From the NCBI RefSeq assembly GCF_964355755.1, contig NC_092675.1, forward strand, positions 30,476,912-30,540,911: a stretch of 64,000 bases of DNA. The letters run 5' to 3'. Made by a program: the position numbers and the translations under genes. The stretch is from Antedon mediterranea (taxonomy: Eukaryota; Animalia; Echinodermata). Within the stretch, counting starts at the first letter, position 1. Every line of letters begins with the position of its first letter. Shown here in pieces: positions 27,001 through 64,000 of this stretch. The notes under the pieces were generated by a model that ran no database searches, had not been told where the DNA came from, and was given only the letters and a program-made list of their open reading frames with translations.

Positions 27001-27580
27001 AAGCTCACACAAACTTACCTGTTTATACCGCATCAAGCATAACAATAATGGAAAAGCCCACACAAACTTACCTGTTTTTACCGCATCAAGCATAATAATA
27101 ATAGAAAAGCCCACACAAACTTACCTGTTTTTACCGCATCAAGCATAACAATAATGGAAAAGCTCACACAAACTTACCTGTTTTTACCGCATCAAGCATA
27201 ACAATAATAGAAAAGCCCGCACAAACTTACCTGTTTTTACCGCATCAAGCATAACAATAATGGAAAAGCTCACACAAACTTACCTGTTTATACCGCATCA
27301 AGCATAATAATAATGGAAAAGCCCACACAAACTTACCTGTTTTTACCGCATCAAGCATAACAATAATGGAAAAGCCCACACAAACTTACCTGTTTATACC
27401 GCATCAAGCATAACAATAATAGAAAAGCCCACACAAACTTACCTGTTTTTACCGTATCAAGCATAACAATAATAGAAAAGCCCACACAAACTTACCTGTT
27501 TTTACCGCATCAAGCATAACAATAATGGAAAAGCTCACACAAATAATTCTGAATGACGACGTAGTCCCTAGGGGTGACAT
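5938..27580 (-). CDS. Paralog B: receptor-type tyrosine phosphatase, SP - SRCR x6 - Tie-like Ig x2 - EGF-like x4 exons - FN3 x5 - TM - PTP D1 - PTP D2 (about 38 exons)
   Basis: Exon 1 is 27496-27580. SRCR exons span ~22985-26179; Ig-like exons ~22085-22493 and ~21280-21519; EGF exons ~17701-20997; FN3 exons ~13086-17310. TM exon ~12871-12945 ([24 protein letters not shown]). D1 motifs: [43 protein letters not shown]2 motifs: KNRY, DYINAS, VHCLDGRSRCG. Last exon 5938-6012 ends [11 protein letters not shown]. The 88-bp and 37-bp D1 exons match the usual RPTP exon pattern. Confidence 0.9.
10950..11155 (-). mobile_element. Degenerate tRNA-derived SINE (same family as 29054-29375), shared with paralog A
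   Basis: Reverse complement contains TCCTTAGGCAAGATACTTTAC..TCCACCCAGGTGTATAA..GGTTAGACACAGCTTTGCGCTGATTACTAGCTG, matching the plus-strand copy at ~29140-29250. Confidence 0.7.
14217..15518. mobile_element. Non-autonomous hAT-type DNA transposon (~1.3 kb)
   Basis: 15-bp TIRs CAGTGGCGTATCCAG / CTGGATACGCCACTG. Perfect 8-bp TSD ATGCCAAT (14209-14216 and 15519-15526). Absent from the paralogous intron of A (~38350-38380). No transposase ORF. Confidence 0.9.
20130..20480 (-). mobile_element. Possible degenerate SINE-like interspersed repeat
   Basis: tRNA A-box-like head on the minus strand (AGTGGTCGAGTGGTTAGGAT near 20455-20475). Boundaries uncertain. Confidence 0.3.
21656..21720. repeat. Perfect 28-bp inverted repeat with a 9-nt loop (intronic hairpin)
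   Basis: TTTGCTCTTATTGACACTTTGTGTACAT-TAATATAAT-ATGTACACAAAGTGTCAATAAGAGCAAA. Confidence 0.9.
23970..25870 (-). repeat. 635-bp tandem duplication unit (SRCR exon plus intron), three near-identical copies
   Basis: The acceptor motif (plus-strand 'cttggtt') occurs at 24291, 24926 and 25561, giving a period of exactly 635 bp. The introns are almost identical. Confidence 0.92.
26641..27545 (-). repeat. 53-bp tandem minisatellite of exon-1 end plus splice donor (17 donor copies) in paralog B
   Basis: Same unit as 3095-4690. 'cttacctg' recurs every 53 bp from 26643 to 27491. No 27-bp sub-array. Confidence 0.95.
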
Positions 27581-38100: not shown

Positions 38101-41100
38101 TTGTCATTATCTCAGTCGCTTGATCAGGAGCTTTTATAAGAAATAAAGGAGAAACTATTATTAATAATCGTAACTTACAGACATAATTTATATCACATTT
38201 CCTCTGACCACATTCCTGCAAATCCTATGACAAGTAGACAGAATGCGATATTTCTAAAAGACCAGTTGAACTAAAGTAAGATCATATTTCTTCTGCACAA
38301 GTTATTTTAGAATCAAAACACACTATGAATTAATAGTTGCACTTATAGTAATGCACACAGATATGATAATAACCTACAGAAATAGGAATATAGACTAGTA
38401 AACTGTGATATAGTGTATATGCTCTACTTTGTATTTAAATTATCATCAATCATGTGACGAAAGATGTATTCTATGGAACATATTAACACTACTTAGTAAT
38501 ATATTGTTAATAAAAGTACAGTATTCATTTTTTGCCTACCACTTTCTTCTGTTTGTACTGTATGTTCATCTGATGCTGCTCCAGCTACGTCATTAGACAC
38601 CGCAGTAACTTGGATTCGATATCGAGAATACGCACTCAGATTTGATAAGATGTATGAAGCAGTTTGAACGGGACCTTTATTGATGACTTCATTACTAGTG
38701 TTATCACACATATCAAATTGTATTAGTTGATAAGTTACGTTATACATAACAGGACAGTTTCCATATGTCACTTCATTCCAAGATAAAGAAATATAATCGG
38801 GCCCAGAAATATCAGAAAGTCCATTAACTTTGCTTGGAACTAAGAAATACATAACAATTATAATGTTAGTAAAACAATGCCAAACTTCCGATATTATATT
38901 CAACGATTGTAAAGTCTACCGTAGATTAATATATTACAGTATATAACAGAAATAAAGAAATAGAAAATAATACAATAAATTGCAAAAATCTCTTGGATGC
39001 TAAATATAAAGATGCAACATATCAAGCTGTATATAATCATTAGGAGAAAGAACTTTTTTTTTCTCGTAGCGATAACGGCTTGACAGACATTTCGTTGGTC
39101 TTTATTAGGCAAATTGTCGTCACATATATCTCTACACAATTTGTGTTAGATTCTGACAAAACAATTAGATTAGATGTTATTAAAAACTAATAACAAACAA
39201 AATTGATAAACACACAGTGCAATCAAAAGGTCAATACTCAAAAAACTAGTTATGTTTAACCATAGAGATATTATAGTTCACTATAATATCTCTATGGTTT
39301 AACATTGTTTTACCAGTTTTAGTTGTTTCATTATTACTCCATGGTCCATTGAATCCAGCATTGTTCTCTATTTGTACTTTACATGTATACCACGTGCACG
39401 CTGTTAACCCGCCAATCGTAGCTGATGTAACATCACTAGCAGTGACAGTTATAGATTCTGAATCTGACTCACAATATACATCGTAATGAAAACTGTTGCA
39501 CTGTATTTTTTCTGTATCATTATCTATTTCCTGTAGAAAAAATCTATTTATGATTATAATTAAGATAATATAAGATAATAAGATTTATAAAGCGCGCTCC
39601 ACAAAGTGCTCAAGGCGCTCATAGTTATATTCAAAGAAGAAAATACAAAACACCAACCTGCCATGCAACTGTTAATGAAGAACTGGATGGATAAACTGCA
39701 ATAATATGTGGAGAAACCAATGGCTCTATAAAAAAAATTATTAAATTAAGAAAATATTCCCTCTTTTGCATTTGAGTGTAAAAATACAAAATAGCAAAAA
39801 TGTAAACTTAGGTTAATTATTCTAGTCACAATTATTGTTCTGTCAAAGGTTTCTATGCTTTTTTTCAGATAATGAATATGAATGGTTAATTGATGTTTAT
39901 CAATATATTGATCCATTGTTCTCACTTGAACATATCGTTGATTCTGTCACAACTTGACTGTCTGGTCCACAAACATCTTGTCCGCCGATGTTCTTACATA
40001 CACGAACTTTGACCTCAATCGTTCGATTTGGCGGTAACCCAGTAATTGTAAAGACGTCATCATTTGTTGTGATTGTTGTAAATGTTGATTCATCTTCACT
40101 TTTATATAACACTTGATAAGATGAAGCTGGTCCAGTTCCATAATCCTCACCAAAAGTCCAATCATACACGATAATCATATTGGTGGCTGTGACGTCAGTA
40201 CTATTAACTTGCTTGAATAAATACGGCAAAGCTAAGTCAAAAGAAAAAAAATATATTGCATTATACAAGAGCGTATCAAATTATTGATTGGTCAAAATCT
40301 CGAATAATTGGCAATTATTTAGGTTGTGTCCTTGTAGAGAGCGTGTTTGTTCTGTTTTGTAGGATATTTTGCAAATTTATTAATAACTAACCTATCTGGC
40401 AGTCGTTACCGCCCCATCCATCTTCACAGTTTCCACTATCACAGTAACCCGTATCTTTATCACATGATGATGACGTTTTACAATGGCAACTATACTGACA
40501 AAATTCACCAAACTGTCTATCGGGGCATGTCACATGATCTTAAGGAAAAAAACAGATAAAATACACACAAAAAATAAAAATAACAAAATACACCTTGTAA
40601 CACACGTCCACAATGAGATCCACAAGTGTTACTGTTCCATTTTTAATAATAATAACATTATAGAATAACGCATAACTACTAAATAAACATTTTAATTTAC
40701 CAAGACATTTATTTCCATCAAATCCATAGTTACATGTAGCTCCACTTCGACATCCTTTTTTGTAATCACAGTAATATGAACTGCAGTGGCATCCTTGATT
40801 ACAACCTGCGCCGTAGTTTGTCCCTGTACATGCTATTTTTGTGAAAAGTATACCAATTTGAACAGTTGGATTTTTTTTATTTATTATTTTATATTTTTTT
40901 CTGCAAAAAAGTTAGCTGAACGCGTTTTTTCAGGCCATTAATGTAACAGCTAATAAAATAACTTCTGTTTTTTTCTTTTTTTTTCTCATACGCATCCAAC
41001 AGCGAGTGAATCGTCAATTACAGGATGGATAAACTATTTAATACTTTATACTAAATCTCATTTAAGGCTTAGGAAGTGGAGTTCAAAGAGTCGTGAGTTA

Positions 41101-47100: not shown

Positions 47101-47798
47101 AACCACGGTTGCCACAATCAAGGATATTGCTCTCTGATCCAGAACACGCTACCTGATCAAGCAGGATGGGTGAGGCAGCATTTCCAGGACCATATGCGGC
47201 ATAACTTGGAGCTCCAGTGGCTTTTACATATCCTAGCTGACGGCATACTACTGTCGCGTCCTGCATATCCCAACCATCGTCACAAATCGTTCCCCATTCG
47301 CCGTTATAATAGAGTTCAACGCGTCCCTCATTTTGGCTTGGACCACCAACGAGACGAATCTCTTAATGAACAAAAAAAAATGTGTTTTTTTTTAATTTTG
47401 GCATAATTTTATTTTATTTTTACTTATAAATATAGGGGAAGAGGATGAGGCAGGAAACAATATCCTTACATTATTATTATTATTTCTTTTCTCATATTTG
47501 TTTGATGGCCATCCCAAAATTAGTCGTTACGGCATTACGAAAATCTACCTGTCTTATTTTTATTTTAATAATACTAATAATTTAAACAAAAACAGCAAAA
47601 GTTTCTTTACAGGTACAGTTTACAGTGTTTTTATTTTTAAATGATAAATAAGTAATAAATAAATGAAATGTGGGTGTACCAATTCTAGGCTATGGCTGCT
47701 AGTTTTGAAATACAATGCAGATTAAACTTACCTGTTTTTACCGTATCAAGCATAACAATCATGAAAAAGATCACATAACTAATTCCTAATTGTGACAT
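28817..47798 (-). CDS. Paralog A: receptor-type tyrosine phosphatase, SP - SRCR x5 - Tie-like Ig x2 - EGF-like x4 exons - FN3 x5 - TM - PTP D1 - PTP D2
   Basis: Exon 1 is 47732-47798 ([22 protein letters not shown], single donor). SRCR exons ~47047-47361, ~46400-46712, ~45441-45749, ~44467-44777 and ~43569-43877. Ig-like exons ~42868-43254 and ~42376-42615; EGF ~40392-42228; FN3 ~37073-40231; TM ~36847-36919. The PTP exons (28817-~36040) are nearly identical to B. Last exon 28817-28891. Confidence 0.9.
29054..29375 (+). mobile_element. tRNA-derived SINE, near full length, inserted in the last intron of paralog A
   Basis: A-box-like GTGTGGTGA and B-box GGTTCGAATCC, a CORE-like central domain (TCCTTAGGCAAGATACTTTAC...CCACCCAGGTGTATAATTGGG) and an (ATT)n tail. 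Absent from the same intron of B (~6070). Confidence 0.8.
32089..32497. mobile_element. ~410-bp insertion with terminal hairpin and microsatellite (Helentron/DINE-like non-autonomous element)
   Basis: Absent in paralog B (~8665). Starts with the palindrome AGGTTATATGCAT-GAT-ATGCATATAACCT followed by (TTTA)n. The family assignment is inference. Confidence 0.55.
34960..35160 (-). mobile_element. Degenerate SINE, paralogous to 10950-11155
   Basis: Same sequence at the same intron position in paralog A, so the insertion predates the duplication or homogenization. Confidence 0.7.
39258..39299. repeat. Perfect 20-bp palindrome (possible collapsed MITE) just inside an FN3 intron of A
   Basis: AACCATAGAGATATTATAGT-TC-ACTATAATATCTCTATGGTT. 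Absent from paralog B (~16370-16395). Confidence 0.85.
41050..41175 (-). mobile_element. tRNA-derived SINE head (second family)
   Basis: Minus strand GTAGCTTGGTGGTTAACGTGCTTGCCTTCCAATCCTAAGGTCCGGGATTCAATCC contains A and B boxes but no full acceptor stem, followed by non-tRNA sequence. Confidence 0.55.
41830..42032 (+). mobile_element. Fragment resembling the N-terminus of a Penelope-like retroelement ORF
   Basis: Translates as ...[35 protein letters not shown], resembling the LR.YEK...K...DI.FL..C....V.PKF pattern of Penelope-like ORF N-termini. Recognized by eye. Confidence 0.55.
43940..44400 (-). mobile_element. Possible highly degenerate Penelope-like (GIY-YIG end) fragment
   Basis: Broken frames ending ...[31 protein letters not shown], loosely resembling the E.I.I....P.LN....L.LF C-terminus of Penelope ORFs. 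Confidence 0.3.
45182..45364. mobile_element. Short MITE-like element
   Basis: Imperfect TIRs TTTTTCACTAGGCGAA / TTCGCCTAGTGGAAAA around an ~150-bp core containing (ATT)n. Confidence 0.5.
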
Positions 47799-48618
47799 AA
47801 TGAGCTTTAACCGTCATCCAGTAATTGTTTTTGTTTATGTTTTTTCTCCAAAAAACAATATAATTTGTAAAAAGCTAGTCACTCTGAATCTAACTATTAC
47901 CGAGTAACATGAAACGCGGAAATGCAAACGATTTTACATTTTGTTGCGAAATACGCTCTAAACTATTAACAGGAATTAATATTTAAAAATGATGAAGTTT
48001 GATGAAGATTAGTAATTACATTATTAAGCAAACAACTAAACATTTCAACAATGACATTTACTCGTCGATTAAGGAAATAATTACATGAAATATCGTTAAA
48101 TCAATAATATAAGTGTTGGCCAATCAAAGTGTGCTCATTACTTCATGTCAATTTTTAGACTGAATGTATTGACAAAACTGACAATTGACAGATCATGTTT
48201 TATCGTAACAGAGATATTGTCCCAAGATAAAAGTCATACGATATGACCACTTAATGTACTGCTATTGAATTTAATTATTGCTGTGAGCTAAACATTGTAT
48301 ATTAACTAGATCTATAGTATTGTAATAGTCTGCTGTAACTATACTGTGGAGTAGCTTTGCGTCAGGGTGTTGAGTCAGATATTTTGCCATACCATGAGGT
48401 AATTTGTACTTTATACTAAGTACATTGAGAACACTTTTCACAGGTGGGACTATTCTCAATGTACTTACTATAAAGTACAAATTACGTCAGAATATGGCAA
48501 AACATCTGAATAGATATTTAGTATATTAAATATTTGTTTATATTTTATTTATTCATTATGTCGATCAAATGGATCACACAAGGATAAAAACACAGAAATG
48601 TACAACAAAACAACTTAT

Positions 48619-49325: not shown

Positions 49326-51571
49326 TTAGTAAGAAAAGAAAAATGTGGATGGCGTTACTAGATTGCTTAGAGAGTATATTTGTTGACGACGAACATTTTG
49401 TACTTTGACTAGAATTACTTTCACGTCTCCTGCGTCAATGTTACTTATCATGTTATTTTCTGGAATAAAATAATTAGGTAAATTTCTTTTCTGCAAAAAG
49501 TGGATAAGAAAATTTTGAAGATCTAGAAATCTATCACCCAGATTAGAATCTATCCAATCAGTTGGAGATGTTCTCTCACAAAGCCAAAACATGGTGGTCT
49601 TCATGTGATAGGAGGACAGTACCTTCGGTTCCTGTAATGAAAATAAATCAAATATAATACTCCATTAAAACAATCAATATCGAATTTGAATTCATAGACT
49701 ATATCGTGTCGTCTTCCTTCGCCATCTACATAAAGTGGTTCATTTTAAATATAAACAGTTAAAAAATTACCTAGCTTAGTTCATAGTCAACATACCAAGT
49801 ACTAGTATTGTAGTGTTGAAGTCTAAATATTCTTTACTATCTTGTATCGTGCAACAACGGTACAATTAAGTGACATTTATTTTATTCACAATTCAAACTC
49901 ACCTTAAAGTGTCTTCTCCAAAGTAGCTTGAAAATCATGTAACATTTACGTTGTTGGTCTGTAAATGTGTGTGCCAACGTACGTTCTGCCACAGAAAATG
50001 ACAACCGCCATTCTAAGTCGAGTCCTTTTCCACCAGGATAATATTTTGGAACAATATGGTAGCCGTCTGCAATAATCTTTTCTACAGTTGTCTTTTGAGG
50101 CCATTTTCGTTGTCTTGATACCCAAGAATTGGCAATGGTAGGCCAATTTACTCCATTCAAAGCGATAGCTACATCAACTGTTTGGTCAAACTGTAGTACT
50201 GAACCTGTGACATTGTCAATCAATACGCATTTTTAGGTACATTATTGTATTTGTCTATCGGTGGGGAATTAATTGATTTGAATATATACAAACTATGAGG
50301 ATTAAGTATCATTTACTGGATACTTTTTTGAAGTGTTCTTAATTCTGTTCTTCTTGTATTTGTATAGTTTGGGTATTGGACCATGTAGCAGGGCTTTCTA
50401 TAGGCCTAACAATATATATTTTAGGGTTTTTTCTCTGCCTTTTTCTTAACCTACCGGTACGGTATATTCCACTATATCTATCTCAACCTCAATTTGTATA
50501 AGTTGTTATTAATCTGTCGACGATTTCTTGAGTGTTGTTAAAAAGTAAACCATGGGCCAACTGATAAAATCATACTAAGGAAGCATTACAATTCTGGTAT
50601 CATAACTATGAATAATTTGTTTAACCTACCAAATGGTTCTTGTGATTCGTAACAAACAGAAATTGTTTGTACGGGTCCTTCTTGAACAAGTCTCAGTTTG
50701 CCTTTAAACTCATCTACTTTATTGTTTTCATTCCTAGTAAATTCAGACTGAACGGCTTTGAGTCGTCCTCTGGTATATTGCTCTTGGATACCTAATAGTT
50801 TCGAACGAGTTAAAAGCATTTCACCACTTGAAGATCTCGCACAAAGATGCTTGGTAAATCCAAGGCTCGTGTATGATTGAAGACTCTCTGGAATAAATAT
50901 TGTTACGTAACCAGAATGAACAGACGGACGCCATGTAAAAGTAGGACACTCTTGACGTTGTTGGCGATTTCCAATATCTTCCATTTCTGTTATAAAAGAT
51001 TTTTTGTGAACATCTTCTTTTTCTTCCATCATTCCTCTGGGTACGTCATTAGCAATCGTAAATTCTTCACAAGTTGTATTATGAGGATCTTCGGCAGCAA
51101 TAGCAAGAGGAATCATCAAGTCCATTTCATCGTCTACGTAAGACATTCCAGGACCGCTGTTATCTGATATTGCAAAGCCTTCGCTCGTGCTGCCTGTCCA
51201 TACAATGCCACTCATATCCTTGATGTTATCAAAGCATGGTCTCATCAACTCAAAAACCTGCTGAAATCGTTTAGGCAATGTATTTGTGTTTTCTGGCGGC
51301 GTACTATGTTTCTGAAACTTTGCTAGCATTTCACTTTGAATCCGAAGAATTGTTGTTATAAATGCCACGTGCTCGTTTGAAATCGGATCCACTCGTGTAG
51401 CGGGATCACTATGTATTTTATACAAACTTACAGAACGTTTGATGACTGTCTTTATGTCGATTTCATTCAGATATCCTTTTCGAGACCTCTGGTTAATCTC
51501 GTCGTATTCAGCAGATGAATTTTCTGCTTTCTTAAAAGCTTCTGTCAAAAAGCGGTCAGACCACCTTACAC
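49326..51571 (-). CDS. cGLR/Mab-21 catalytic domain of gene D (3 exons)
   Basis: Motifs align with cGAS GS..E-x-D..D, WRLSFS, SSYHVKT and YFIPE.N. No zinc-thumb H...CC insertion. Confidence 0.92.
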
Positions 51572-54500
51572 CTGAATATGAAACATATAAAGTAAGCTAA
51601 ATAGGAGCTTAGTGAATGTATTGTTAGATAGGGCATATTACGTTTGCGTTTATTTCCGCAATAACTTAATGTGACACTATAGAACAGACTGGTGTTCTAT
51701 ACTAACATTTATGATTATGTGAACTAGTGCTGTTCCGCCGCACTACTATCAAATCGATTTTGAACAATACCATGAAAGAGACTCTTTAACACACTCGGCG
51801 TGGTACGAAACAGCGCTAGTTTCTTAATTATTATAATAACAATATTTAAAAACAAAAACTCACTTTTCATTCGGTAACCAGTTTTTGAACTGCGTCCACC
51901 TTCATTTAAAAAGAAAAGATAATCAAATACATAACAAATAATATAAATAAAAAACAACGCCGATGCCACCCACTCAATCGGGTAGTAAACTAAAGCATGT
52001 TACCTTTCCGTGTTGTTTCTACTTTTGCTTGATGACTGTAAGTAAACATAGTCTTGCCCTTTTCTGATGACACGTTTTTAACTACTTTTATTCTGATCGC
52101 ATATAAGGTTCCTGGACTGAGGTTAGTTATCTCAAATTCCGGTTTAGTACTTCTTTCGTCCACTGAACCAGCTTCTGTGAACTCTGACCTAGGGACAGTA
52201 GTTTTGTATTCGACGACGAACTCGTCGATTTGCCGTTCTGTACCACAGTCGTCATTACTGACGTCATAAGCAGGCCAATATACACTGATTGAGCTATCCG
52301 TCTTATTCAATAATTTTGGCGCTGACAACATTGGTATAGCGTCTGTAAAAATGCAATCGAATATTAATTATTATTTTATTCTACTTTTATGAACAAGTCA
52401 ACACTTGTAGATAGACTTTACGATTTTGTGTATATTACGTTGTATAATTGAACTCCGACAATTTTTACGCCAAATATAATTACTATACAAAATAAACCTA
52501 CATCTACAGCAGACAATCATTACTAAACAATTAAATGGGATAGTATACATAAATTATAATGCCTAACAAGAGAGGACGATCCACTTGCGTTGAAAACGAC
52601 GCAAAACAATGTGTGCTGAAGCTGCTTCAACCTTCATTTAAAAAGAAAAGATAATTGCTTAACAATTAATTATAGACAAAACAACGCCGATGCCACCCAC
52701 TCAATAGGGTAGTAAATTCAAGCATGTTACCTTTCCGTGTTGTGCCTAATATTGCATTAGGACTGTAAGTAAACATAGTCTTGTCATTTTCTGATGACAC
52801 GTTTTTAACTACTTTTATTCTGATCGCATAAAAGGTTCCTGGACTGAGGTTGGTTATCTCAAATTCCGGTTCAGTACTACTTCCGTCCACTGAACCTGCT
52901 TCTTTGAAATCTGATCTAGGGAAAGTAGTTTTGTATTCAACGACGAATTCGTCAATTTGCCGTTGTGTACCACAGTCGTCATTACTGACGTCATAAGCAG
53001 GCCAATATACACTGACTGAGCTATTCGTCTTATTCAATAATTTTGGCGCAGATGACAACATTGGTATAGCTTCTGTAAAAAATGCAATCGATATTAATTA
53101 TTAATTTATTCCACTTTATGAACTACACAACTACTATGAACAAGCACTCAAATTTTCCAGTCGACGTACCATGCAGTCGGCTAGCGCATGCGCATAGCAT
53201 AACAATGCCGTAATAGGGAGCAGTTGACATAGTCGACGTGAAATTCTTGCTTTTAAAACGTCGCGAAATAATGTGTGCTTGAAAGGCCTGGCCTTCTATC
53301 TGCCGAATCTGTCGTAAGCAGACACTTGTCCGGACCTGAGGATGTTGAACTGTAAAATACATCAAGGAAGTAAACTCACTACTTTCTCGATAAATGTTTT
53401 TCAGGTTAGGATTTTTATCTTCATTAATGAAGTCAAGTCCATAGGGTCCTCGAAGGCGTGACAATGACGTAGACTTTCCACCAACAACCTTAACAGAAAA
53501 TTGTTCTTTGAAAAGAGAAGAAAATGTCATATCAAATATCCTAGTAATTATAAAAAGTATGTAGACCTAAATGAAAGATTGGGATAGCGTGGTATCAAAT
53601 TTAACACAAGCAAAAGGCCCTATTTTTTGTCTTTAAATCCATCCGATGTGGTATACTGTATAGTTGACTCAATATTTTACTTTATGATTAAATATAATCT
53701 AATGCATTATATTTACCGAAGGGTTCATCATTCGTAGTGTCAGGTGATTCTTGAAGAATTATTTGTCCAATATTTTCGGTGATTGATACTTGTACGCATT
53801 TTCCACTTGTCGCAACTAGTGCATACACAGCTAAACATAAATCAATGAAAGGCGTATTATTATCATTATCATCATCATTATTAATATTATTATTAATGGT
53901 CTTGTTTGTTAAATTGTTTAATAAATAATTTCCTGTAAAAAGGAACCATAGTGTACATAAGGACAAAGAACTGTAACTGAAGATAAAATTAGTACTTTTG
54001 TATCTTAAGATCTTATTTTTAATTAACAGATATGTTTTTCAATAATTTCAGTTGTAATGTAATGTTGAGATTTTCCAAATAAATTCAAATTAGGTCAACA
54101 ATAATCATATTCATCCTTTAATGGGAACTCACCTCCAGGAATATTCCGAAATGCGATGCCTTGATATTTCCCATTATATAGAAAAGCCAAAGTACCGTCT
54201 GGATGTAAAACAAAGCCTACTTTATCATCAACTTGAATATTTCTTAGGTTTAGTTTGTACCCTCCACCAATCGTTTCAAAATTACAAAAAAGGATATTGT
54301 CTCTGAAAACAGAATTGTGTATGAATCGTGAGATACACATATTGAATACCACAATTCATTTACAGTAAATTATTTTTTCATTACAATATTTTATTTATTT
54401 CAATTGTTTATTGTTATAAAAAAAAATATAGTGCCATGTTTTTTTATTTATGATAATACATTGTTGGGATCCTACAATTAAAGCTATGCTTACAGAATGG

Positions 54501-57500
54501 GATGTTGTTGTTGATATACGTTGTATGCATTTTCACTGGAATAGTTTTTATTCTCGAGAAATAAATGTGTTGCAGTACGGCCAAATTGATTGATATATTT
54601 CTAAACTTCTCTTACTGATGTGTGGCAATACCAACCAGTTATACTGCGCTACAATGTAGCTCTTCCGCCTATTCTATGTTAGCCATGTTTGTTTGTTTTT
54701 GCGAGAGTCAACAATTATTGCTTACTGCCCTTTAGCCAATGAATATTTAACACAGGGAAGTAACCAATGTATCGTAGAAAAATCAAACTTACAACTATAA
54801 TATTCCTGATTACAGAAAGGTTTCATGAATATATAATGAAGAATCTAGAATTTGACGTTTTTTCACAAACCTTAAAAACCAGAATCCACTACCTTTTCCA
54901 AAACCATCTCCTTCATAAAAGATATCATCGGGAAATGAATTGTAGATACAGACGCCTAAAACATAATATTGATTTGCTTAATTATCAAATTAAACAATAA
55001 TTAGAAGATATTTAATGATTCTAAACATCCTAAATAAATTCCACGAAAAATCCAATGAATTAAATATATTTTTCATTAAAAATCAAATTTCTGGACGGAA
55101 TCATACAAATTTACACACACCAAATTGTGGAACATGATGAATATATTATTATTATTATTATTAATATTAAAGGTTCAATCTTGATTGCATAATAATGTGG
55201 AATAATGATATCCTACCAAACTCCATTGAGCTGTTATGACTGTCATCTACTTTGTCAATTTTTAACTCGAAAAGTCTTGACGTCTGAATCGGTTGGTTAG
55301 AAACAAATACCGCTCTGTTATGTTTCACACCGCTGTTTATACGATAAGCGATAGTTCCATCGCTGTTGACTTCGCCGTGATCCCTGACTGGTTTCAAAGT
55401 ATACGGAACCGCAGCTGTATGTTCCTAAACACAATTAAAACATGTATTTATCAGAATTCGAACATGACTCTTTTTGGCTATTATTTTTGGCGATGTCTAC
55501 TGCAGCTTCATGGTCGCTGGACATGTTACCGTACGAGAATCGAGTGAATAATAACAGTAAAGATGGGGATACCTGTAAGAGTAAAAATTACTATCGAGTT
55601 TGTACATTATAGAAGCCTTCGATTTTTGTCGACTAGGATTATTGTGTGCAGGAGGGTGGAGATGGTGTGACGCGCTTTCTCAGACGATGATAAACGAGCA
55701 AATCGAAGGCTCCTTATTATTAGGCTATAATGTTACTCTTACTTGTTTACTTGTTTTTGTTGTTATTGACAGTTGGACATCTTCTTCGGTTGTTCTACTG
55801 TTTGCATTGCTATTTGTTTCTGTCATTTTACTGGTTATATTAACATCTCTCTGGTCATCTGTTTCATCTTCTTTACTGGTTACATTGACATCTCTCTGGT
55901 CATCTGTTTCATCTTCTTTACTGGTTACACCATTTTTCTCTTCACCAATAAGTTCATCCATGTTACTGCTTGTGGTTTTGCAACTTGCTTTTATCTCTGT
56001 CTTGACGACCTTACTGGTCACATCAATTGAATGTGAAGCATCCACTTTGCTGGCTTTGCACATTTCCGTACCTTCTTCGTCTTTGTTCATTGTATTACTT
56101 TCAGTTGGCGTGTTGTTAGAAGCCGTGTTAGATTCTGATTTCTGGGTTATGCTTTGGCCTCTGTATTTATTAGTTTGTTCTTCAAGGTTTATAAGCTAGG
56201 AATATAGAGATAAAATCAATGTCTTACCAATAAAAAAAAAATCAGAATAAAGAGGTCCCTTTTTGTCTTTCTTTTTCCATTTAAGAAACATAATATTTAC
56301 CTTTTGTTTAAAATGCTGATAATATGCGTCAGTGATTGTGTGCATTAAGTTTAGTGCTCCATGTTCAATAAGTACTTCCGGGTCACAATCACTGTAGTTA
56401 ACTAGAATTTCGATTGACGTTTTAATAATTGTCCATTTCAGCTCATCTGTATAAACTGTTTCTGTTTTCGCTTTCCATACATCATTAATGATACGAATAA
56501 GTATATCTGTTAAATGAATACATTTATATATTTTTTTCATTATATATATTATTCATGTTTAGTTTTTATTTGTCTTTTGTTTCTCTCACCTTTTCTTGAA
56601 ATTTACAATTTAGATAATATAATTTTGGACAAGAAATTATAATACCGTCATAGTAAAAAAAAAAGACATGGTATTGCACTGTACCTTACAATCTAATTTG
56701 GTTAAAAATTTGTTAAATATAAAAAATAAATAAAAAAGTGATCAGTTACTATCAAACAACAATTTGTCCTTCAGGTATTTATCCGATAATTATCCGATTT
56801 GAATGAGATAATTATCGGTACATTTATCTCGAGTGGAATCGTTTAAACCCCATTTCCGCAGACAGTTTATCGGTAAATCATCACTTAATCTTTATCGGTT
56901 AATTTTTGGTGGCGGAAACACGACCTAAAAGCAGTAAATATTACCTGGCCATCCATGCTCATTCATATGTTTCAGAACACTTTCTCTCTCATGTTGTGGT
57001 GCAAGAATCTTTTTCACAGCAGTAACAATGTCTAAGACGTCATTGTTTGCAAAACTATCACATTGCAATAGAACGCAGTAAAGATTGTCCAACATCTGAA
57101 TATTATCAAGACAATCACTTTCCGAAGTTTTTTCGCCTGAAGTAAATTATTACAAACGTTACATACCTATTAACCTACAATAATTATACACTGTCCACCA
57201 GTACCACCTCATGCGCATCTTTCTATTTTCAAATTTACATTTAAAACTCTATGTTCCTTTATAAGTTCTCTTTAACCTTTCCAACTCCTACCTTTCCAAC
57301 GCCTACCAAAACAGTAATATCGATTATATTTTGCTGAGCATTCCAAACAAAACAATTATGAATATAGTAATTACTTTTATCTTGTATGTCATATCCTTCT
57401 TGGCATTGTTCATCAGTAGATGGGCAAGCAACATCACTAACTCCCCAGTCGCTAAGAACTTGCTTTACGTAGCGTACAAGTTTCTCATTGTCAGCATTCT

Positions 57501-59520
57501 TTAACATTTTGCATAGCAATGGCACAGATTTTTCAATTATCTAAATATTAAATATTATTTTTCTAAACATAATAATATGAAGTATGCTATTATTTAATCA
57601 AATTTAAATTATTTATTTTTATAACAGTTCAGTGAACTTATGCTACGCACTGTGTACTAAACACGTAATCGTTTGTGTTTATTTTAAAACATTATTATTT
57701 TGGTATTACAAGAAAATACAATCTTGTATGAGTATAAATTAGGGTACTGCATAAATATCTTTTGAATTAAAACAATTGTCTGTAAGATTATCGAGTTTCA
57801 TTTAAAAGAAGGTAATGACAAAGAACAGAGTTGTGTAAATGTGTATACGGTAATTCAACATAAACTAATTTCATAACAATTTAAAAATGTGCAATCTATA
57901 ATTTGTTTTAAAGATGAAATATATTTTTAGCTGTTGTTAGACTAACAGTAACCTCGGTGTTGTGAAATCTATTATAAAATGGTAAGACAATAACACTGTT
58001 TCTAGGATGAACAACATTATATTTATGCGAATTTGTTGACCTTTTTGATAAAAGATGTGAAAATTACAATTTGCTGCTGTTTTAAATCTACCATTAGATT
58101 TTGAAAAAATATAGAGGAAATAGCATTGAAACATAATCTCAGCATAAAACTACGTTGAAACGCTAGTTTTGTGTTCCATGGTGGAAAAGCTTTTATATAT
58201 TGTTTCAGGATTTATGCTTCAGTTAGAAATAATAATATTGGCATAGATATGAATGCATTCTTTTGAATTTTTAACCGTGAAGTTATTATAGTGGGGCAGA
58301 TTAGAGTTCGGTTTAATCTATTCATTATTATAAAATTAAAATCACTTCCTCTTTGGCGCTCTTGAAGCGTTACCGTACTTCAAGACATAGATCTATTTTC
58401 ATGTTTGATTATAAATTAACCTTGTGCGAGTCCCAAATGTATTCTCCAATGCTCACTTATGACCAACACACTTGTTTTAATTAATTTACTATTCTAATTT
58501 GTATTTTAAGACAAATATGACGTCATCGTACCTGATCTTTGTTGAGAGGATGTACAGCTAAATTAACGAGTGCTTCAACCAATTCCTGTACAGAGAATCC
58601 TGTTGATTTACCTGAGAGTGTGTTATCCAAAACTGAAGTTATCTCATTTATTACTCCTAAGAAATAGAAAAAGTGTCAACTTTAAAAACAAACAAAAATA
58701 CATAATAACTGAAAATATTACAAAATATTACAAGCAGATAACTTAATAGTACATTCTATTCTGTGACTTTATTAGGATTAGGTCATTATTTCACCCAAAA
58801 AAATATATAGAACTATTTTGATTGCTGTCTCAATGAAATCCAGTTAATGTTGATAAAACAAATAATAAATCTCTGTAATGCTATTTGGTGTAATGTCTAG
58901 TTTTGTTTATATTGAAAATAATCTCTTGAATGGAAATTAAAGATAGATAATATAGTTTTGTTGTAATTGATATGATTCGTCCTACCGTGTTTATCCTCTA
59001 GTAACTCCACGTCGATGACAGGATCTGCTATGTAGCTAATTGCTATCAGAGAATACAGACATCTCCATTTTGATGGTGAACCTTTAAAGATGTCAAGTAT
59101 TTTCCTCCACTCAGGAGTGCGAAACAACTCTCGATTTTTTCTACTTTTAGACAAGTTGCTTATAACACACAGTGAAGAATTTAAAAGCAGTTCCATCCTC
59201 TGTAATAATTTAACATAATGGATAAATATTTATTTTGATACTATTATAATTAATAATATCAATAATATAGTGGGCTATCATCTTCACAGCATCATCATCA
59301 GATAAAACAAATGATATCTAAGGATTTTAATTTGTATTAGGATTATTCAAGCAATGACAACATCTAACAGTACATTCAATTTTGTCATCTTATCATCAAT
59401 TATTATACAAGAGAATTACAATACCTGTGAAGTTTTCAGGTCATCTTCCCAAAAGTTTCCTTGACGAGGGGGCATCAAAGGGCCCGATATTGGTGGAAAG
59501 AGACTTTCCAATTCTGCCAT
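49326..59520 (-). CDS. Gene D: ARM-like repeats - low-complexity spacer - Neuralized (NHR) domain - FN3 x2 - cGAS-like Mab-21 nucleotidyltransferase (cGLR), ~1461 aa
   Basis: 17 GT-AG exons with matching phases and no stops: 59425-59520, 58986-59199, 58532-58656, 57375-57540, 56945-57136, 56301-56506, 55743-56195, 55217-55424, 54871-54955, 54133-54302, 53717-53830, 53380-53505, 52731-53072, 52004-52342, 50630-51571, 49903-50204, 49326-49631. NTase motifs: GSTSEG..DEMDLM, TVDVAIAL..WP, WRLSFSVAE, LSSYHMKT, LPNYFIPENN. The start ATG is uncertain because the frame is open upstream to at least 59625. Confidence 0.8.
52004..53072 (-). CDS. Two tandem FN3 exons (phase 1-1), duplicated with flanking intron (period ~727 bp)
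   Basis: SSISVYW...FVVEY...FEITNLSPGTLYAIRIKVV. Exons are 52004-52342 and 52731-53072. Confidence 0.85.
53717..55424 (-). CDS. Neuralized homology repeat (NHR) domain of gene D, NEURL4-like
   Basis: AVFVSNQPI..LFELKIDK..SMEFGVC...FWFL...YKLNLRNIQVDDKVGFVLHPDGTLAFLYNGKYQGIAFRNIPGAVYALVATSGKCVQVSI follows the NHR consensus. Confidence 0.8.
55829..55930 (-). repeat. 45-bp coding tandem repeat (VTSKEDETDDQRDVN x2) in the acidic spacer exon
   Basis: Visible in ORF 55725..56090. Confidence 0.85.
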
Positions 59521-60599
59521 GTTTCTGCCAAGTCTTAAAAATAGAGAATAATCTTGGAGGTGGTGTGAATGCGCGCGACGCAAGCTTGGCGAAGCCGCCA
59601 CGATTTCGTAGTCGTTTCTAAACAAATACCGAAAGAGTCTTTTATTTAGTGGTACCGCTTAAAACATATTATCAAAAATTGTTTTGTTTGAAACAGACAA
59701 TATTTCTGTAATAATGGTAAGTATGCTTCATTAAGCAAAGTGTTTGTTATGGGAAATCATTGGTCTGTATACACAATCAAATATTGAACGATTCCTTATG
59801 TGATCCTCCTCAATATAAAAGAACTTTTAAATTTGGTAATAGTACATAACATTGTAGAACTAATTGCGAGTAATAATCCGACCGTGAAATAATAAAAACA
59901 AACTCGTAAAAATGTTGTGACGGTTTTTCTTAAATACTTCCAAAACAAATCAATTTACTGAGTGCTACCAGCATTGTTTGGTCTTTACACTACGGTATTA
60001 TTATGAACCTGGTATTATGCTCACATTCCGGAAGGGAAACCGGGAACGTAACGTTGTAATGATCAGAGGAATGTTCTTTATCAAACAGTTTATTTCAGTT
60101 AATTCGTTAGCACGTACACCATCATTTTCATGAATTATTGGGGCACCTTTTTAGTTATATAGGTCTATTTGTATTAGCACATTCAGTTAATATATTCATA
60201 TGAAAACTAAACAAGTTATTATACAAATTACTACCGTTTACTGTATTTATTGATATTTGATCTCATATTTTTCTACTTTTAATAGAAGGTTTTATACCGT
60301 TTTAATTCCCATCTCTTGATTTGAATGATAAATTAAGCAAACCCTTAACATACTAAATATTAATAAAACAGTTTTTTACAAAAATGTTATGACTGTTCGT
60401 TTTAGTATGCAGCTATACATTAATTAATAGGTCCATGGTTTTTGTATAATATATTTATATTACAATAAACTTATAGTGTTTACCGCATGTTTTGCAAATC
60501 TATCTTCAGTTATGCACATGTTACAAAGTGGGAAATGTGAATTTACTAGATATATGTAAAAAGAGGTTTAATAGTTATGAATTACAGATACTATAAATT

Positions 60600-60828
60600 T
60601 CACTCGTCATCGTCAAAGCAAACTCTGATCGCACTGTGGCTTCTCTAACAGTATTCTGAAACTATCTTCTGTCTTCAGTCATCCTACTTGCTTTCTCCAT
60701 AGAGGGAGCCAAACACATCTGTTATAGTCTTTTCCCATTTGCATATTGGTTTTCCTCTTCTCTCTTCCCTGGAAAATAAGCCTCCAGCACTCTCTTCCCC
60801 ATTCCATCTTGCCACTACTAATGCCACT
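60600..60828 (-). mobile_element. Degenerate 3' end of an RTE-like LINE immediately after the stop codon of gene E
   Basis: Frameshifted translation DGMGKRVLEAYFPGKR / RRGKPICKWEKTITDVFGS / MEKASRMTEDRR*FQNTVREAT resembles the GKR.RGRP...W...A.DR..FR terminus of RTE ORFs. Confidence 0.6.
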
Positions 60829-60829
60829 A

Positions 60830-63800
60830 CTAATTAAAATTGAAGAATGATATTGGAGCAACCAGATCTTTCAGATAGAATGCTTGGTGACGACGAACAT
60901 TCTGCACTTTGGCTAGAATTACTTTCACATCTTCTGCGTCAATGTTACTTATCATGTTATTTTCTGGAATAAAGTAATTAGGTAAATTTTCTTTCTGTAA
61001 AAACTGAATAAGGAAATTTTGAAGATCTAGAAATCTATCACCCAGATTAGAATCTATCCAATCAGTTGGAGATGTTCTCTCACAAAGCCAAAACATGGTG
61101 GTCTTGATGTGATAGGAGGACAGTACCTTCGGTTCCTGTAACAAATTACCAATAATAAACATTAATACAACTTATATTTAAATAGCGGTACTTAAACAAA
61201 CCAAGCTAAAACACACTTAATGGTCATCTCCGACACTCCAGTTATATCAGACTAAACATGCTTAACTTTTAACTTCAACGTTCGGTGCCATGCAACAATT
61301 CAAATAAACCCACCTTAAAACATTTTCTCCAAAGTTTCTTAAAGACCATATAACATTTACGTTGATTTTCTGTAAATGTATGTGCTAATGTACGTTCTGC
61401 CATAGAAAACGACAACCGCCATTCTAAGTCGATTCCTTTTCCAGCAGGATAATATTTTGGAACAAGATGATAGCCGTCTGTAATAATCTTTTCTACAATT
61501 GTTTTTTTAGGCCATTCACGCTTTCTTGATATCCAAGGATTGGCGATGGTTGGCCAATTTACTCCATTCAAAGCGATAGCTACATCAACTGTTTGGTCAA
61601 ACTCTAATACTGAACCTATAACAACAAGTAATTAAACATAATGTAAATACATTCACTACAATTGACTAATTACTGATATGGACTACACTACATAACACTT
61701 TCAAACTAATAATTATAGGATTTTAGTCATACATACCGCCTGGTTCTTTTGATTCGTAACAAACAGAAATTGTTTGTACAGGTCCTTCTTGAACAAGTCT
61801 CAGTTTTCCTTTAAATTCATCTTTTTCGTTTTCATTCTCATTCTTGGTAATTTCAGACTGAACGGCATTGAGCCGTCTTCTGGTATACTCCTCTTGGATA
61901 CCTAATAGTTTCGAACGAGTTAACAGAATTTTACCATTTAAAAATCTCGCACAGAGATGCTTGGTAAATCCTAGGCTCGTGTATGATTGAAGACTGTCTG
62001 GAATAGATATTGTTACGTAACCAGGATGAACAGACGGACGCCATGTAAAAGTAGGACACTCTTGACGTTGTTGGCGCTTTCCAATATCTTCCAGTTCTGT
62101 TATAAAACATTCTTTGTTAACGTCTTTTTCTTCTTTCATAATTCTACTGCTCATTTCATCCACAATTTTAAAATCTTCACAAGGGGTTGTATGATGAGGA
62201 TCTTCGGCAGCAATAGCAAGAGGAATCATCAAGTCCATTTCATCGTCTACGTAAGACATTCCAGGACCACTGTTATCTGCTATTGCAAAGCCTTCGCTCG
62301 TGCTGCCTGTCCATACAATACCACTCATATCCTTGATGTTATCAAAGCATGGTCTCACCAAATCAAAAACCTGCTGAAATCGTTTAGGCAATGTATTTGT
62401 GTTATCTGGAAGTTGTTTATTTTTCTGAAATAGTACTATCAATTTACTTTGAAGTTCAACACTTGTTGTGATGAACCTCATGTGATCGTTAGAGATCGGA
62501 TCCACTCGAGTAGCTGGATTATTGTGAGTTTTGTACAAGTTAACAGAAAACCCTATCAATGTTCTTAAGTCTTTTTCGTTTAAGTATCCTTTTCTAGATC
62601 TCTGATTTATCTCAAATAGTGGATTAAGCGCCTGTTCTGTTTTCACATAGAACTCATTTATCGAGTCGTCTAAAGAATTAAAAAAGAAGTTATCATTATT
62701 TTTACTACTGTACCGAAACTTGTTATTTTCAAATGTTTATAATATTTTGATAGTTTGAGAAGACTTAGGACACTAACCTGGTTTATTGTAGACCTCTTTC
62801 ATTTTCGGATGTGTATCTTCATTAACGAAGTCAAAACCATATGGTGCACGCATGCGTGACACGGACACAGGATTATTGCCAACAGTCTTAACAGAAAATG
62901 ATTCTTAAAAAGTGAAAATTCAGGTTACAGATACATACGCCATGTTATAACTATCTTTGTGATGAACACAATTCTGGTGAAGTATTAATAAGTCTTTTTT
63001 TTATTAAAACAAATAGAATTTTGATTATCAAAACTACGAAACTTTTCTTTACCAAAGGGTTCATCAACGGTACTGTCGGGTGACTTTTGCTGAAGTATTT
63101 TACCAACATTTTCTGTGATTGACACCTGAACACATTTTCCACTTGTTGCGACTAGTGCATACACACCTAAATTGAAAATAAAATAAATATCAACGTCTAC
63201 ATAAATCACTTTATTTCAACCTATTTTTTTAACAATGATTGATCAAACTCACTGTTATTTTATTCATAATACACTTACAAAACATGAAATAATTTATAAC
63301 ACACTCAATCAAAGTAACATATATTTCTGTTCATAATAATTATTTGACAATAATTTGATTAAAGTAAGAGAGGGCAAAAAAAAAATCAAAGCTTGTGTGA
63401 GGCAGCCCATACAATTACAAAGAAAACAGGATAATACGGGAACCGGAAGCAAGACAAAAACATTCTTCTACAACATAGTATTACATGCAGGACAATTCCA
63501 ATGTTGTTTAACGTTATGTTATGCCAATAAACTGTAATGCACCACATAATACCACGACTATATGCTGTTTCCCACTTTCAACTACAATTTTTGTTTTCCT
63601 AAAGTCTAACAATTTACTCCTATAGAATTGTATGTGACAGTATAAACAGGTATTAGAACAGAACTCACCTCCAGGAATATTGTGACAGTATAAACAGGTA
63701 TTAGAACAGAACTCACCTCCAGGAATATTCCGAAATGCGATGCCTTGATATTTCCCATTATATAGAAAAGCCAAAGTACCGTCTCGATGTAAAACAAAGC

Positions 63801-63886
63801 CTACTTTATCATCAACTTGAATGTTTCTTAGGTTTAGTTTGTACCCTCCACCAATCGTTTGAAAATCGCGCCAAAGATCATCATCT
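60830..63886 (-). CDS. Gene E (3' part): NHR - cGAS-like Mab-21 nucleotidyltransferase (cGLR), paralog of D without FN3; 5' end outside the window
   Basis: Exons 63717-63886, 63053-63166, 62778-62903, 61737-62669, 61314-61615 and 60830-61135. Five of the six exon sizes (170, 114, 126, 302, 306) equal those of D, and the catalytic motifs are the same. Confidence 0.88.
63633..63728 (-). repeat. 48-bp tandem duplication spanning a splice donor of gene E
   Basis: TGTGACAGTATAAACAGGTATTAGAACAGAACTCACCTCCAGGAATAT x2. Donors GAG|GTGAGT follow exon ends 63717 and 63669. Confidence 0.92.
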
Positions 63887-64000
63887 CTGTAAAAAATAGT
63901 TTCCATAAACATTCTTTTCACAATTAAAATTGAATGTGTTGTAGTCATCAGTCAATTTCACTTTCGCAAACTTGCTCAAAGCATTAAAGCGAAAGTTAGT

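What the first reader, a model, noticed from the sequence alone, without database searches (positions are those of the whole stretch)
51572..53379. Exon shuffling between cGLR paralogs: two FN3 exons present in D, absent in E
Seen: in E the 126-nt linker exon (62778-62903) is separated from the NTase exon by a 108-nt phase-1 intron. In D the same intron position is 1.8 kb and holds two symmetric phase 1-1 FN3 exons that are tandem duplicates of each other. The FN3 (IPML..P...W..DDCGT...ITNLSPGTLYAIRIKVVKNV) resembles the first FN3 of the neighboring receptors (LPHL...W..EDYGTG...[20 protein letters not shown]) and carries several N-x-S/T sequons. Inference: an ectodomain exon from a Tie/RPTP-type receptor was captured into a cytosolic sensor, like an integrated decoy. 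The exons could also be skipped in frame.
Basis: partly seen in the sequence, partly recalled or inferred. Interest (0 to 1): 0.75.

Follow-up and report, generated by a model that had tools for sequence, protein, structure and literature searches.

The report
Feather-star cGAS-like gene gained fibronectin exons
One of two neighbouring copies of a cGAS-like immune-enzyme gene in a feather star has gained two fibronectin-type (FN3) domains that are spliced into its RNA and missing from its relatives, likely adding a protein-binding module beside the enzyme; where they came from is unresolved.

Summary
The window is from the crinoid Antedon mediterranea. Gene D (XP_071954287.1) and its paralog E encode a helical ARM-like region, a Neuralized (NHR) domain and a Mab-21/cGAS-fold enzyme. 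One RNA run shows all four inclusion junctions; no skipping junction was listed. None of 12 NHR-family homologs (E, Anneissia, hemichordates) has FN3, and D is sister to E, so this is a derived gain. The insert lies about 70 residues upstream of the predicted cGAS core, and the acidic catalytic residues are kept. The donor is unresolved: likeness to the neighbouring phosphatase receptors' first FN3 (26-31%) is at generic FN3 level, and the tree neither shows nor rejects kinship. Nothing tested supports a decoy role. Best reading: ordinary 1-1 exon shuffling that added a likely protein-binding or spacer module to an apparently undescribed ambulacrarian NHR-cGLR-like family. New variant of a known kind, moderate interest.

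The parts
49326..59520 (-). Gene D: ARM-like helical region, NHR, linker, FN3a, FN3b, mini exon, Mab-21/cGAS-fold NTase; 1473 aa (P0001 = XP_071954287.1)
   Evidence: ends; the six exons from 53830 to 50634 were checked against P0001, the other exon ends are approximate
53717..53830 (-). Last NHR exon of D (114 nt, phase 1-1)
   Evidence: RNA joints
53380..53505 (-). Linker exon of D (126 nt, phase 1-1); predicted beta-hairpin plus short helix, conserved across the family
52731..53072 (-). FN3a exon (342 nt, phase 1-1; P0001 720-833)
52004..52342 (-). FN3b exon (339 nt, phase 1-1; P0001 834-946)
51864..51899 (-).
   Evidence: RNA joints 51897-52002 (cut +2) and 51568-51861 (cut +3)
51886..53131 (.). 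Tandem duplication unit (about 520 nt, twice) holding an FN3 exon, its splice sites and the acceptor used by the mini exon
   Evidence: 89.7% nt
50634..51571 (-). First NTase exon of D, with the GS activation loop and the E-M-D acidic pair
49326..50232 (-). Last two NTase exons of D (third acidic residue; Pfam Mab-21 and Mab-21_C); span taken from the open frames
62778..62903 (-). Linker exon of paralog E (126 nt)
62670..62777 (-). The empty site in E: 108-nt phase-1 intron
60830..64000 (-). 3' part of paralog E (P0002, 1213 aa, no FN3); runs off the window

Best explanation
Gene D carries two expressed FN3 exons and a 36-nt exon at a phase-1 intron that is empty in its sister gene E and has no FN3 counterpart in the other homologs found; they likely arrived by ordinary 1-1 exon shuffling and are predicted to add a protein-binding or spacing module upstream of an intact cGAS-like fold. 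Steps: (1) an ARM-like/NHR/Mab-21 gene shared by crinoids and hemichordates duplicated into D and E (shown by tree). (2) One symmetric FN3 exon from an unidentified gene entered D's intron after the linker exon (gain shown; order and donor inferred; an ectodomain-type donor is about 50% likely). (3) About 520 nt around it duplicated recently, giving FN3a and FN3b (shown). (4) All three exons are spliced in (shown in one RNA run). (5) The FN3 pair is predicted to fold on its own between NHR and the enzyme. It likely binds a cytosolic partner or changes how the N-terminal domains reach the enzyme, so that D is switched or localised differently from E while it likely still makes a cyclic dinucleotide (inferred, untested).
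For: Exon anatomy and phases. RNA contigs of run X1 join linker>FN3a, FN3a>FN3b, FN3b>mini and mini>NTase at GT-AG ends, and runs X2-X4 do not hold these joints. RefSeq model XP_071954287.1 includes the exons. No fn3 in the 15 other proteins of 16 found with the NTase region. Linker-to-GS spacing is 387 in D against 143-152 in 9 of 12 family members; 2 lack the exact motif but align without an insert, and 1 has a repeated linker. D is sister to E (100/99) inside FN3-less relatives. Frame kept: 0 frameshifting indels in 339 exon columns against 6 in 158 flanking intron columns, P about 0.001. The cGAS fold matches from about residue 1028 on (Z 25-27), while the insert ends at 958. No hydrophobic segment (highest 19-residue hydropathy 1.32). 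1-1 exons are the favoured units of shuffling in lancelets (PMC4284660, passages).
Against: No functional test exists. dN/dS between the copies is 0.77 and cannot be told from neutrality (p 0.61), so constraint on the FN3 surface is not shown. No donor was found although the gain post-dates the D/E split (each search has blind spots). The RNA evidence is contigs from one run of one study, whose RNA status is a tool guess, and contigs drop rare isoforms. Homolog sequences other than E are gene models, whose introns I could not read. In the 989-residue model the FN3 pair had no homologs in the alignment and was not folded (pLDDT about 22), so its contacts are unknown. The spacing to the third acidic residue (174) is outside the published 50-90.
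Confidence: 0.55

Rival explanations
1. Tolerated passenger: the exons were gained and duplicated as described, but stay only because they keep the frame and sit outside the catalytic fold; they do nothing selected.
For: dN/dS 0.77, not different from 1. The insert lies outside the cGAS core. One Anneissia model repeats the linker segment at the same place, so the site appears to tolerate additions. The lack of stops is not informative (chance 0.39).
Against: The indel contrast shows selection for the frame, though a passenger inside an expressed gene would show that too. All three exons are spliced in. The FN3 fold is intact.
Confidence: 0.28
2. Integrated decoy or bait: the FN3 pair copies a receptor ectodomain that a pathogen protein targets, and binding switches on the enzyme.
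For: Of the 10 neighbouring FN3 frames, the first FN3 of each receptor scores best. Shared exon start, phase and V-x-K-N-[IV] motif, absent from that position in 1255 background domains. Sequons 4 and 3 against 1.4 and 0.8 expected (p 0.03 and 0.02, not independent). Core pI 7.7, below the >8.5 of nucleic-acid-sensing cGLRs, which leaves room for another kind of ligand (PMC9980059 passage).
Against: The likeness ranks only 164-418 of 1255 FN3 domains and 202 and 263 of 1293. No DNA likeness. Tree unresolved. No excess of amino-acid change. Only 1 of 13 family members has a foreign domain at this site. A cytosolic protein would not meet ectodomain ligands (inference).
Confidence: 0.12
3. FN3 is ancestral and was lost in E, or the exons are mostly skipped or an artefact of gene modelling.
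For: Homologs other than E are protein models, and their introns were not read. The RNA evidence is one run of contigs.
Against: It needs separate losses in E, Anneissia and several hemichordate lineages. Four inclusion junctions are in RNA, and one contig appears to run from the NHR exons through the linker into FN3a. DNA runs X2-X4 cover the region (30 of 30 bins).
Confidence: 0.05

Closest known systems
Animal cGLRs with appended domains (ANK, TPR, death domain, multi-cGLR); Li et al. 2023, PMC9980059 (passages and the bioinformatics section read; Table S2 not seen)
   Same: Mab-21/cGAS fold with GS loop and acidic residues; extra interaction domains fused upstream (87% of cGLRs have none, per that paper).
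   Different: ARM-like + NHR + FN3 pair; the words FN3, fibronectin, neuralized and echinoderm do not occur in the main text. The spacing to the third acid is 174, not 50-90. Architectures under 0.5% are lumped as 'Other' in Table S2, which I could not read.
Human MB21D2 (PDB 7lt1) and coral Sp-cGLR1 (PDB 8gjy)
   Same: Best sequence matches among solved structures (E 6e-22 and 7e-17) and best Foldseek matches.
   Different: D has about 1000 residues of further domains upstream and long inserts inside the NTase lobe; its activity is untested.
1-1 symmetric domain-exon shuffling in lancelets; Huang et al. 2014, PMC4284660 (passages)
   Same: Domain-coding phase 1-1 exons move between genes and create new domain pairs; the immune repertoire is strongly expanded in the same animals.
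   Different: Here one case in a crinoid, with the empty site kept in the adjacent paralog and a following tandem duplication.
Plant NLRs with integrated domains; Sarris et al. 2016, PMC4759884 (abstract and outline only)
   Same: An immune-type protein with a foreign domain added in one lineage.
   Different: Plant integrated domains overlap known pathogen targets and recur across lineages. Neither is shown here, and the host is a nucleotide-signal enzyme, not an NLR.
First FN3 of the SRCR-Ig-EGF-FN3-PTP receptors in the same window (17009-17311, 39930-40232)
   Same: Phase 1-1 exon, start A-[IL]-P-x-L, D-x-G-T loop, V-x-K-N-[IV] motif; 26-31% identity.
   Different: No DNA likeness, generic-level scores, not sisters in the best tree; in that tree the receptor domains fall weakly (82/72) with other FN3 proteins P0043 and P0143.

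Membership tests
cGLR superfamily (Culbertson and Levin, PMC10732462) | Mab-21 Pfam domain PF03281 | tested here: met
   50.4 bits against cut-off 24.1; PF20266 also
cGLR superfamily (Culbertson and Levin, PMC10732462) | Placement in the cGLR clade of a CD-NTase tree | not tested
   No reference tree built; best sequence and fold matches are MB21D2, Sp-cGLR1, MAB21L1 and cGAS
cGLR with complete active site (Li et al., PMC9980059) | h[QT]GS, 8-20 residues, [DE]h[DE]h | tested here: met
   W-T-G-S, 20 residues, E-M-D-L in D; the GS loop and acidic pair are kept in all 13 family rows
cGLR with complete active site (Li et al., PMC9980059) | Third acidic residue 50-90 residues after the pair | tested here: not met
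   The spacing is 174 in D and 153-227 in the 12 of 13 rows that hold it. The Asp is present and aligns with an Asp of Sp-cGLR1, so inserts are the likely cause; filed as cGLR-like, not as a curated active cGLR.
cGLR with complete active site (Li et al., PMC9980059) | NTase core plus C-terminal helix bundle, with structural homology to cGAS | tested here: met
   Z 25-27 over about 320 residues to cGAS and MAB21L1; Foldseek E about 1e-15
cGLR with complete active site (Li et al., PMC9980059) | Makes a cyclic dinucleotide when activated | not testable with these tools
   Needs an enzyme assay
Nucleic-acid-sensing cGLRs | Core pI above 8.5 | tested here: not met
   7.7 in D, 6.9 in E, 5.4-6.4 in three relatives, over the last ~515 residues and with a different pI method from the paper's
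Fibronectin type III domain | PF00041 and a seven-strand sandwich fold | tested here: met
   pLDDT 72; FN3 structures fill the list, best Z 7.9, rmsd 1.9 over 74 residues
First FN3 of Tie/RPTP-type ectodomains | Closer to these than to other FN3 domains (score, tree) | tested here: inconclusive
   Generic ranks; tree unresolved, AU p 0.37 for holding them together; secreted and cytosolic FN3 structures tie
Shuffled 1-1 domain exon | Symmetric phase, one domain per exon, empty intron in the sister gene, absent in outgroups, spliced in | tested here: met
Integrated decoy (NLR-ID type) | The domain mimics a host target of a pathogen protein, and binding activates the receptor | not testable with these tools
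   No pathogen or partner known
Integrated decoy (NLR-ID type) | Repeated integration of foreign domains at one site across family members | tested here: inconclusive
   1 of 13 members has a foreign domain there; 1 more repeats the linker segment; the sample is small and limited to 810-2578 aa

The most novel reading that the evidence does not exclude
The phase-1 intron after the linker exon is a swap slot in an undescribed ambulacrarian ARM-NHR-cGLR family. Through it gene D took an FN3 module from a surface receptor and now uses the FN3 pair as bait, so that a protein ligand, not nucleic acid, triggers cyclic dinucleotide synthesis: an animal counterpart of plant integrated-domain receptors, with E as a natural control without the bait.
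Probability: 0.12. Interest if true: 0.75.

Novelty: new variant of a known kind. Interest (0 to 1): 0.42.

Why it matters
Most invertebrate cGAS-like receptors have no known activator, and the role of their appended domains is untested. D and E are adjacent sister enzymes, 77-78% identical over the aligned NTase region, whose main architectural difference is an expressed FN3 pair, so they form a ready-made comparison for what an appended domain does to a cGLR. The work also brings out an NHR-Mab-21 family shared by crinoids and hemichordates, with near-neutral to acidic cores, which I did not find described in my paper searches. The shuffling mechanism itself is textbook.

Tried and rejected
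No whole genome is held, so the genome-wide FN3 phylogeny could not be run. Donor searches found no close relative; 1 hit (D itself) among 87 candidates, 197-2000 aa only. D and 2 generic JGI proteins among 7989 scored; the window's own receptors did not appear, which shows the blind spot; 128 hits, all generic multi-FN3 proteins, best single domain 21 bits; D itself was not listed, so a donor may be hidden behind a cluster representative. The Atlas gave generic FN3 clusters. PDB sequence and fold searches did not separate secreted from cytosolic FN3. No run is on record as RNA; X1 is a guess, borne out by its spliced joints. No skipping joint among the 15 of 17 shown: this is not evidence of absence. 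The idea that the mini exon derives from the linker's 3' end was rejected (29 of 160 control sites score as well). E's intron shows no homology to D's four introns. No tRNA gene in the window and no Rfam match above gathering score in 51500-53500. The 989-residue model left the FN3 pair unfolded for lack of aligned homologs. Table S2 of Li et al., which lists domains fused to cGLRs, could not be seen (journal version not held; preprint supplements closed); it may already list FN3 or NHR fusions. Earlier scan notes held nothing on this gene. The FN3 tree used 60 best-per-protein domains of 127, further domains of P0043 and P0143, 8 of the 10 neighbour frames (the two split second FN3s left out) and the 2 queries; its bootstrap had not settled. 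No complex was predicted, as no partner is proposed.

Full report
Source and genes. The FN3b exon matches one protein exactly, P0001 = XP_071954287.1 of Antedon mediterranea, 1473 aa. This is gene D (minus strand, about 59520 to 49326). Its neighbour E (P0002, 1213 aa) begins outside the window. Both have an N-terminal helical region whose Atlas look-alikes with a named family are mostly armadillo-type (a lead only), a low-complexity stretch, a Neuralized (NHR) domain, a 42-residue linker and a Mab-21 domain. The rest of the window holds tandem receptor genes with SRCR, Ig, EGF, FN3 and tyrosine-phosphatase exons; I did not locate their transmembrane exon.

Observation. E's linker exon (62778-62903) is followed by a 108-nt phase-1 intron. 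In D the same position spans 51572-53379 and holds FN3a (52731-53072) and FN3b (52004-52342), both phase 1-1 with AG/GT ends. They are a tandem duplication that includes intron flanks, 89.7% identical. The six exons from the last NHR exon to the first NTase exon translate without a stop and match P0001, and all four skipping variants that I tried keep the frame.

Expression. No run is on record as RNA. Run X1, guessed to be RNA, shows joints at GT-AG ends that X2-X4 (three runs of one sample) lack: linker>FN3a, FN3a>FN3b, FN3b>mini exon and mini exon>NTase. The piece lengths and equal depth indicate that one 348-nt contig runs from the NHR exons through the linker and 78 nt into FN3a. No skipping joint is among the 15 of 17 shown. 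These are contigs from one study: they prove inclusion, not its share.

Polarity. A search with the NTase region found 16 proteins among 3562 candidates (810-2578 aa). Only D carries fn3. Twelve others belong to the same NHR family: E, two from Anneissia japonica and nine from hemichordates; three unnamed proteins match only part of Mab-21. The distance from the conserved linker motif to the GS loop is 387 residues in D and 143-152 in 9 of the 12. Two lack the exact motif but align without an insert, and one Anneissia model repeats the linker segment. In a tree of the NTase region D is sister to E (100/99) inside a crinoid clade (100/100). One gain in D is far simpler than many losses. The caveat is that homologs other than E are gene models.

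Selection. FN3a and FN3b differ by dS 0.095 and dN 0.074 (ratio 0.77, Fisher p 0.61), which cannot be told from neutrality. D and E differ by dS 0.34 in the first NTase exon and about 0.5 in the linker, so the FN3 duplication looks younger than the D/E split, though patchy identity suggests gene conversion between D and E. The exon has one in-frame 3-nt indel, while 158 columns of flanking intron have six frameshift-sized indels (P about 0.001; AT-rich introns align loosely). So the frame is kept, but constraint on the protein surface is not shown.

Structure. FN3b folds as an FN3 sandwich (pLDDT 72), and its fold matches are FN3 domains, secreted (fibronectin, tenascin, gp130, LAR) and cytosolic (titin, twitchin, myomesin) alike, within about 1.5 Z. 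A model of residues 485-1473 matches cGAS and MAB21L1 at Z 25-27, with cGAS aligning from about residue 1028 on. The insert (720-958) therefore lies about 70 residues upstream of the catalytic fold, between the linker's hairpin-helix and two family-specific helices. The FN3 pair was not folded in that model. The GS loop and E-M-D pair fit the published motif. The third Asp is present but 174 residues on, outside the published 50-90. The core pI is 7.7, under the >8.5 of nucleic-acid-sensing cGLRs. There is no hydrophobic segment, so the protein is likely cytosolic.

Donor. Of ten neighbouring FN3 frames, the first FN3 of each receptor scores best, at 26-31% identity, z 5.3-6.2 over shuffles. 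But it ranks 164-418 of 1255 background FN3 domains and 202 and 263 of 1293 by profile; that background was itself picked for likeness to the query, which makes the test strict. There is no DNA likeness. Shared details favour a distant tie: exon start, phase and V-x-K-N-[IV], which none of the 1255 has at that place, whereas the D-x-G loop is common (233 of 1255). Sequons are mildly in excess (4 and 3 against 1.4 and 0.8), but one in each copy falls in the usual FN3 L-x-P turn. The tree of 75 domains does not resolve D's place and does not reject a clade with the receptor domains (AU p 0.37). Three database searches found no close donor, each with blind spots. I put an ectodomain-type donor at about even odds; the adjacent genes are not the recent source.

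Mechanism. Shown: gain in D, local duplication, splicing, kept frame, position outside the catalytic fold. Inferred: a 1-1 FN3 exon was shuffled into a permissive junction, as is common in lancelets (PMC4284660, passages). It likely works as a binding or spacing module that makes D respond or localise differently from E, with the enzyme likely still active (0.55). Rivals are a tolerated passenger (0.28), a decoy (0.12), and ancestral FN3 or artefact (0.05). The decoy idea lacks a target and a selection signal, and an ectodomain mimic inside the cell would not meet its usual partners.

Relation to what is known. cGLRs with ANK, TPR or death domains are described; 87% have no appended domain (PMC9980059, passages). 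FN3 and neuralized are not in that main text, and its Table S2 could not be seen. Paper searches for cGLR with fibronectin (0 papers), Mab-21 with neuralized, cGLR with echinoderm (2 papers), cGAS/Mab-21 with FN3 and cGAS-like with integrated decoy listed nothing that describes this family or fusion; for most of those papers I saw only the listing and the start of the abstract.

Verdict. A real, expressed, lineage-specific domain gain in a cGLR-like gene: a new variant of a known kind. Interest 0.42, mostly for the D/E natural comparison and the apparently undescribed NHR family.

Noticed in passing
window 49326-64000; P0002-P0013: An ARM-like + NHR + Mab-21 family shared by crinoids (Antedon, Anneissia) and hemichordates (Saccoglossus, Ptychodera, Glandiceps), with kept catalytic residues, long inserts in the NTase lobe and near-neutral to acidic cores; not found described in my paper searches.
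   Followed up: partly
P0004 (Anneissia japonica), residues about 775-900: The linker segment is repeated at the position where D has its FN3 exons; either a second addition at this junction or a modelling artefact. The model also lacks the C-terminal Mab-21_C part.
   Followed up: no
window 50634-51571 against 61726-62669, and P0001 against P0002: D and E show patchy identity (96-98% in some stretches, 10-60% in others), which suggests gene conversion; the 90 codons right after the insertion site are among the most diverged parts of the NTase.
   Followed up: partly
window about 51746-51807: Fragment of a very high-copy repeat in the intron after the mini exon (about 150- to 200-fold depth in runs X2-X4); some loose ends look tRNA-like (recalled resemblance), but no tRNA or Rfam match was found.
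   Followed up: partly
window about 53137-53171: A second, lower-copy repeat fragment in the intron just before the duplicated FN3 unit; repeats on both sides of the cassette may have helped its insertion or duplication.
   Followed up: no
window 200-47400: Tandem copies, about 23.5 kb apart, of a receptor gene with SRCR repeats, Ig, EGF, five FN3 and two tyrosine-phosphatase regions; the end of a third copy lies at 200-2760.
   Followed up: partly
window 63634-63720: A 59-nt tandem repeat in E duplicates the end of an NHR exon with its splice donor.
   Followed up: no
window 3088-4691, 26640-27543, 47712-47799: A 53-bp minisatellite in both receptor copies, with a single unit near 47724.
   Followed up: no
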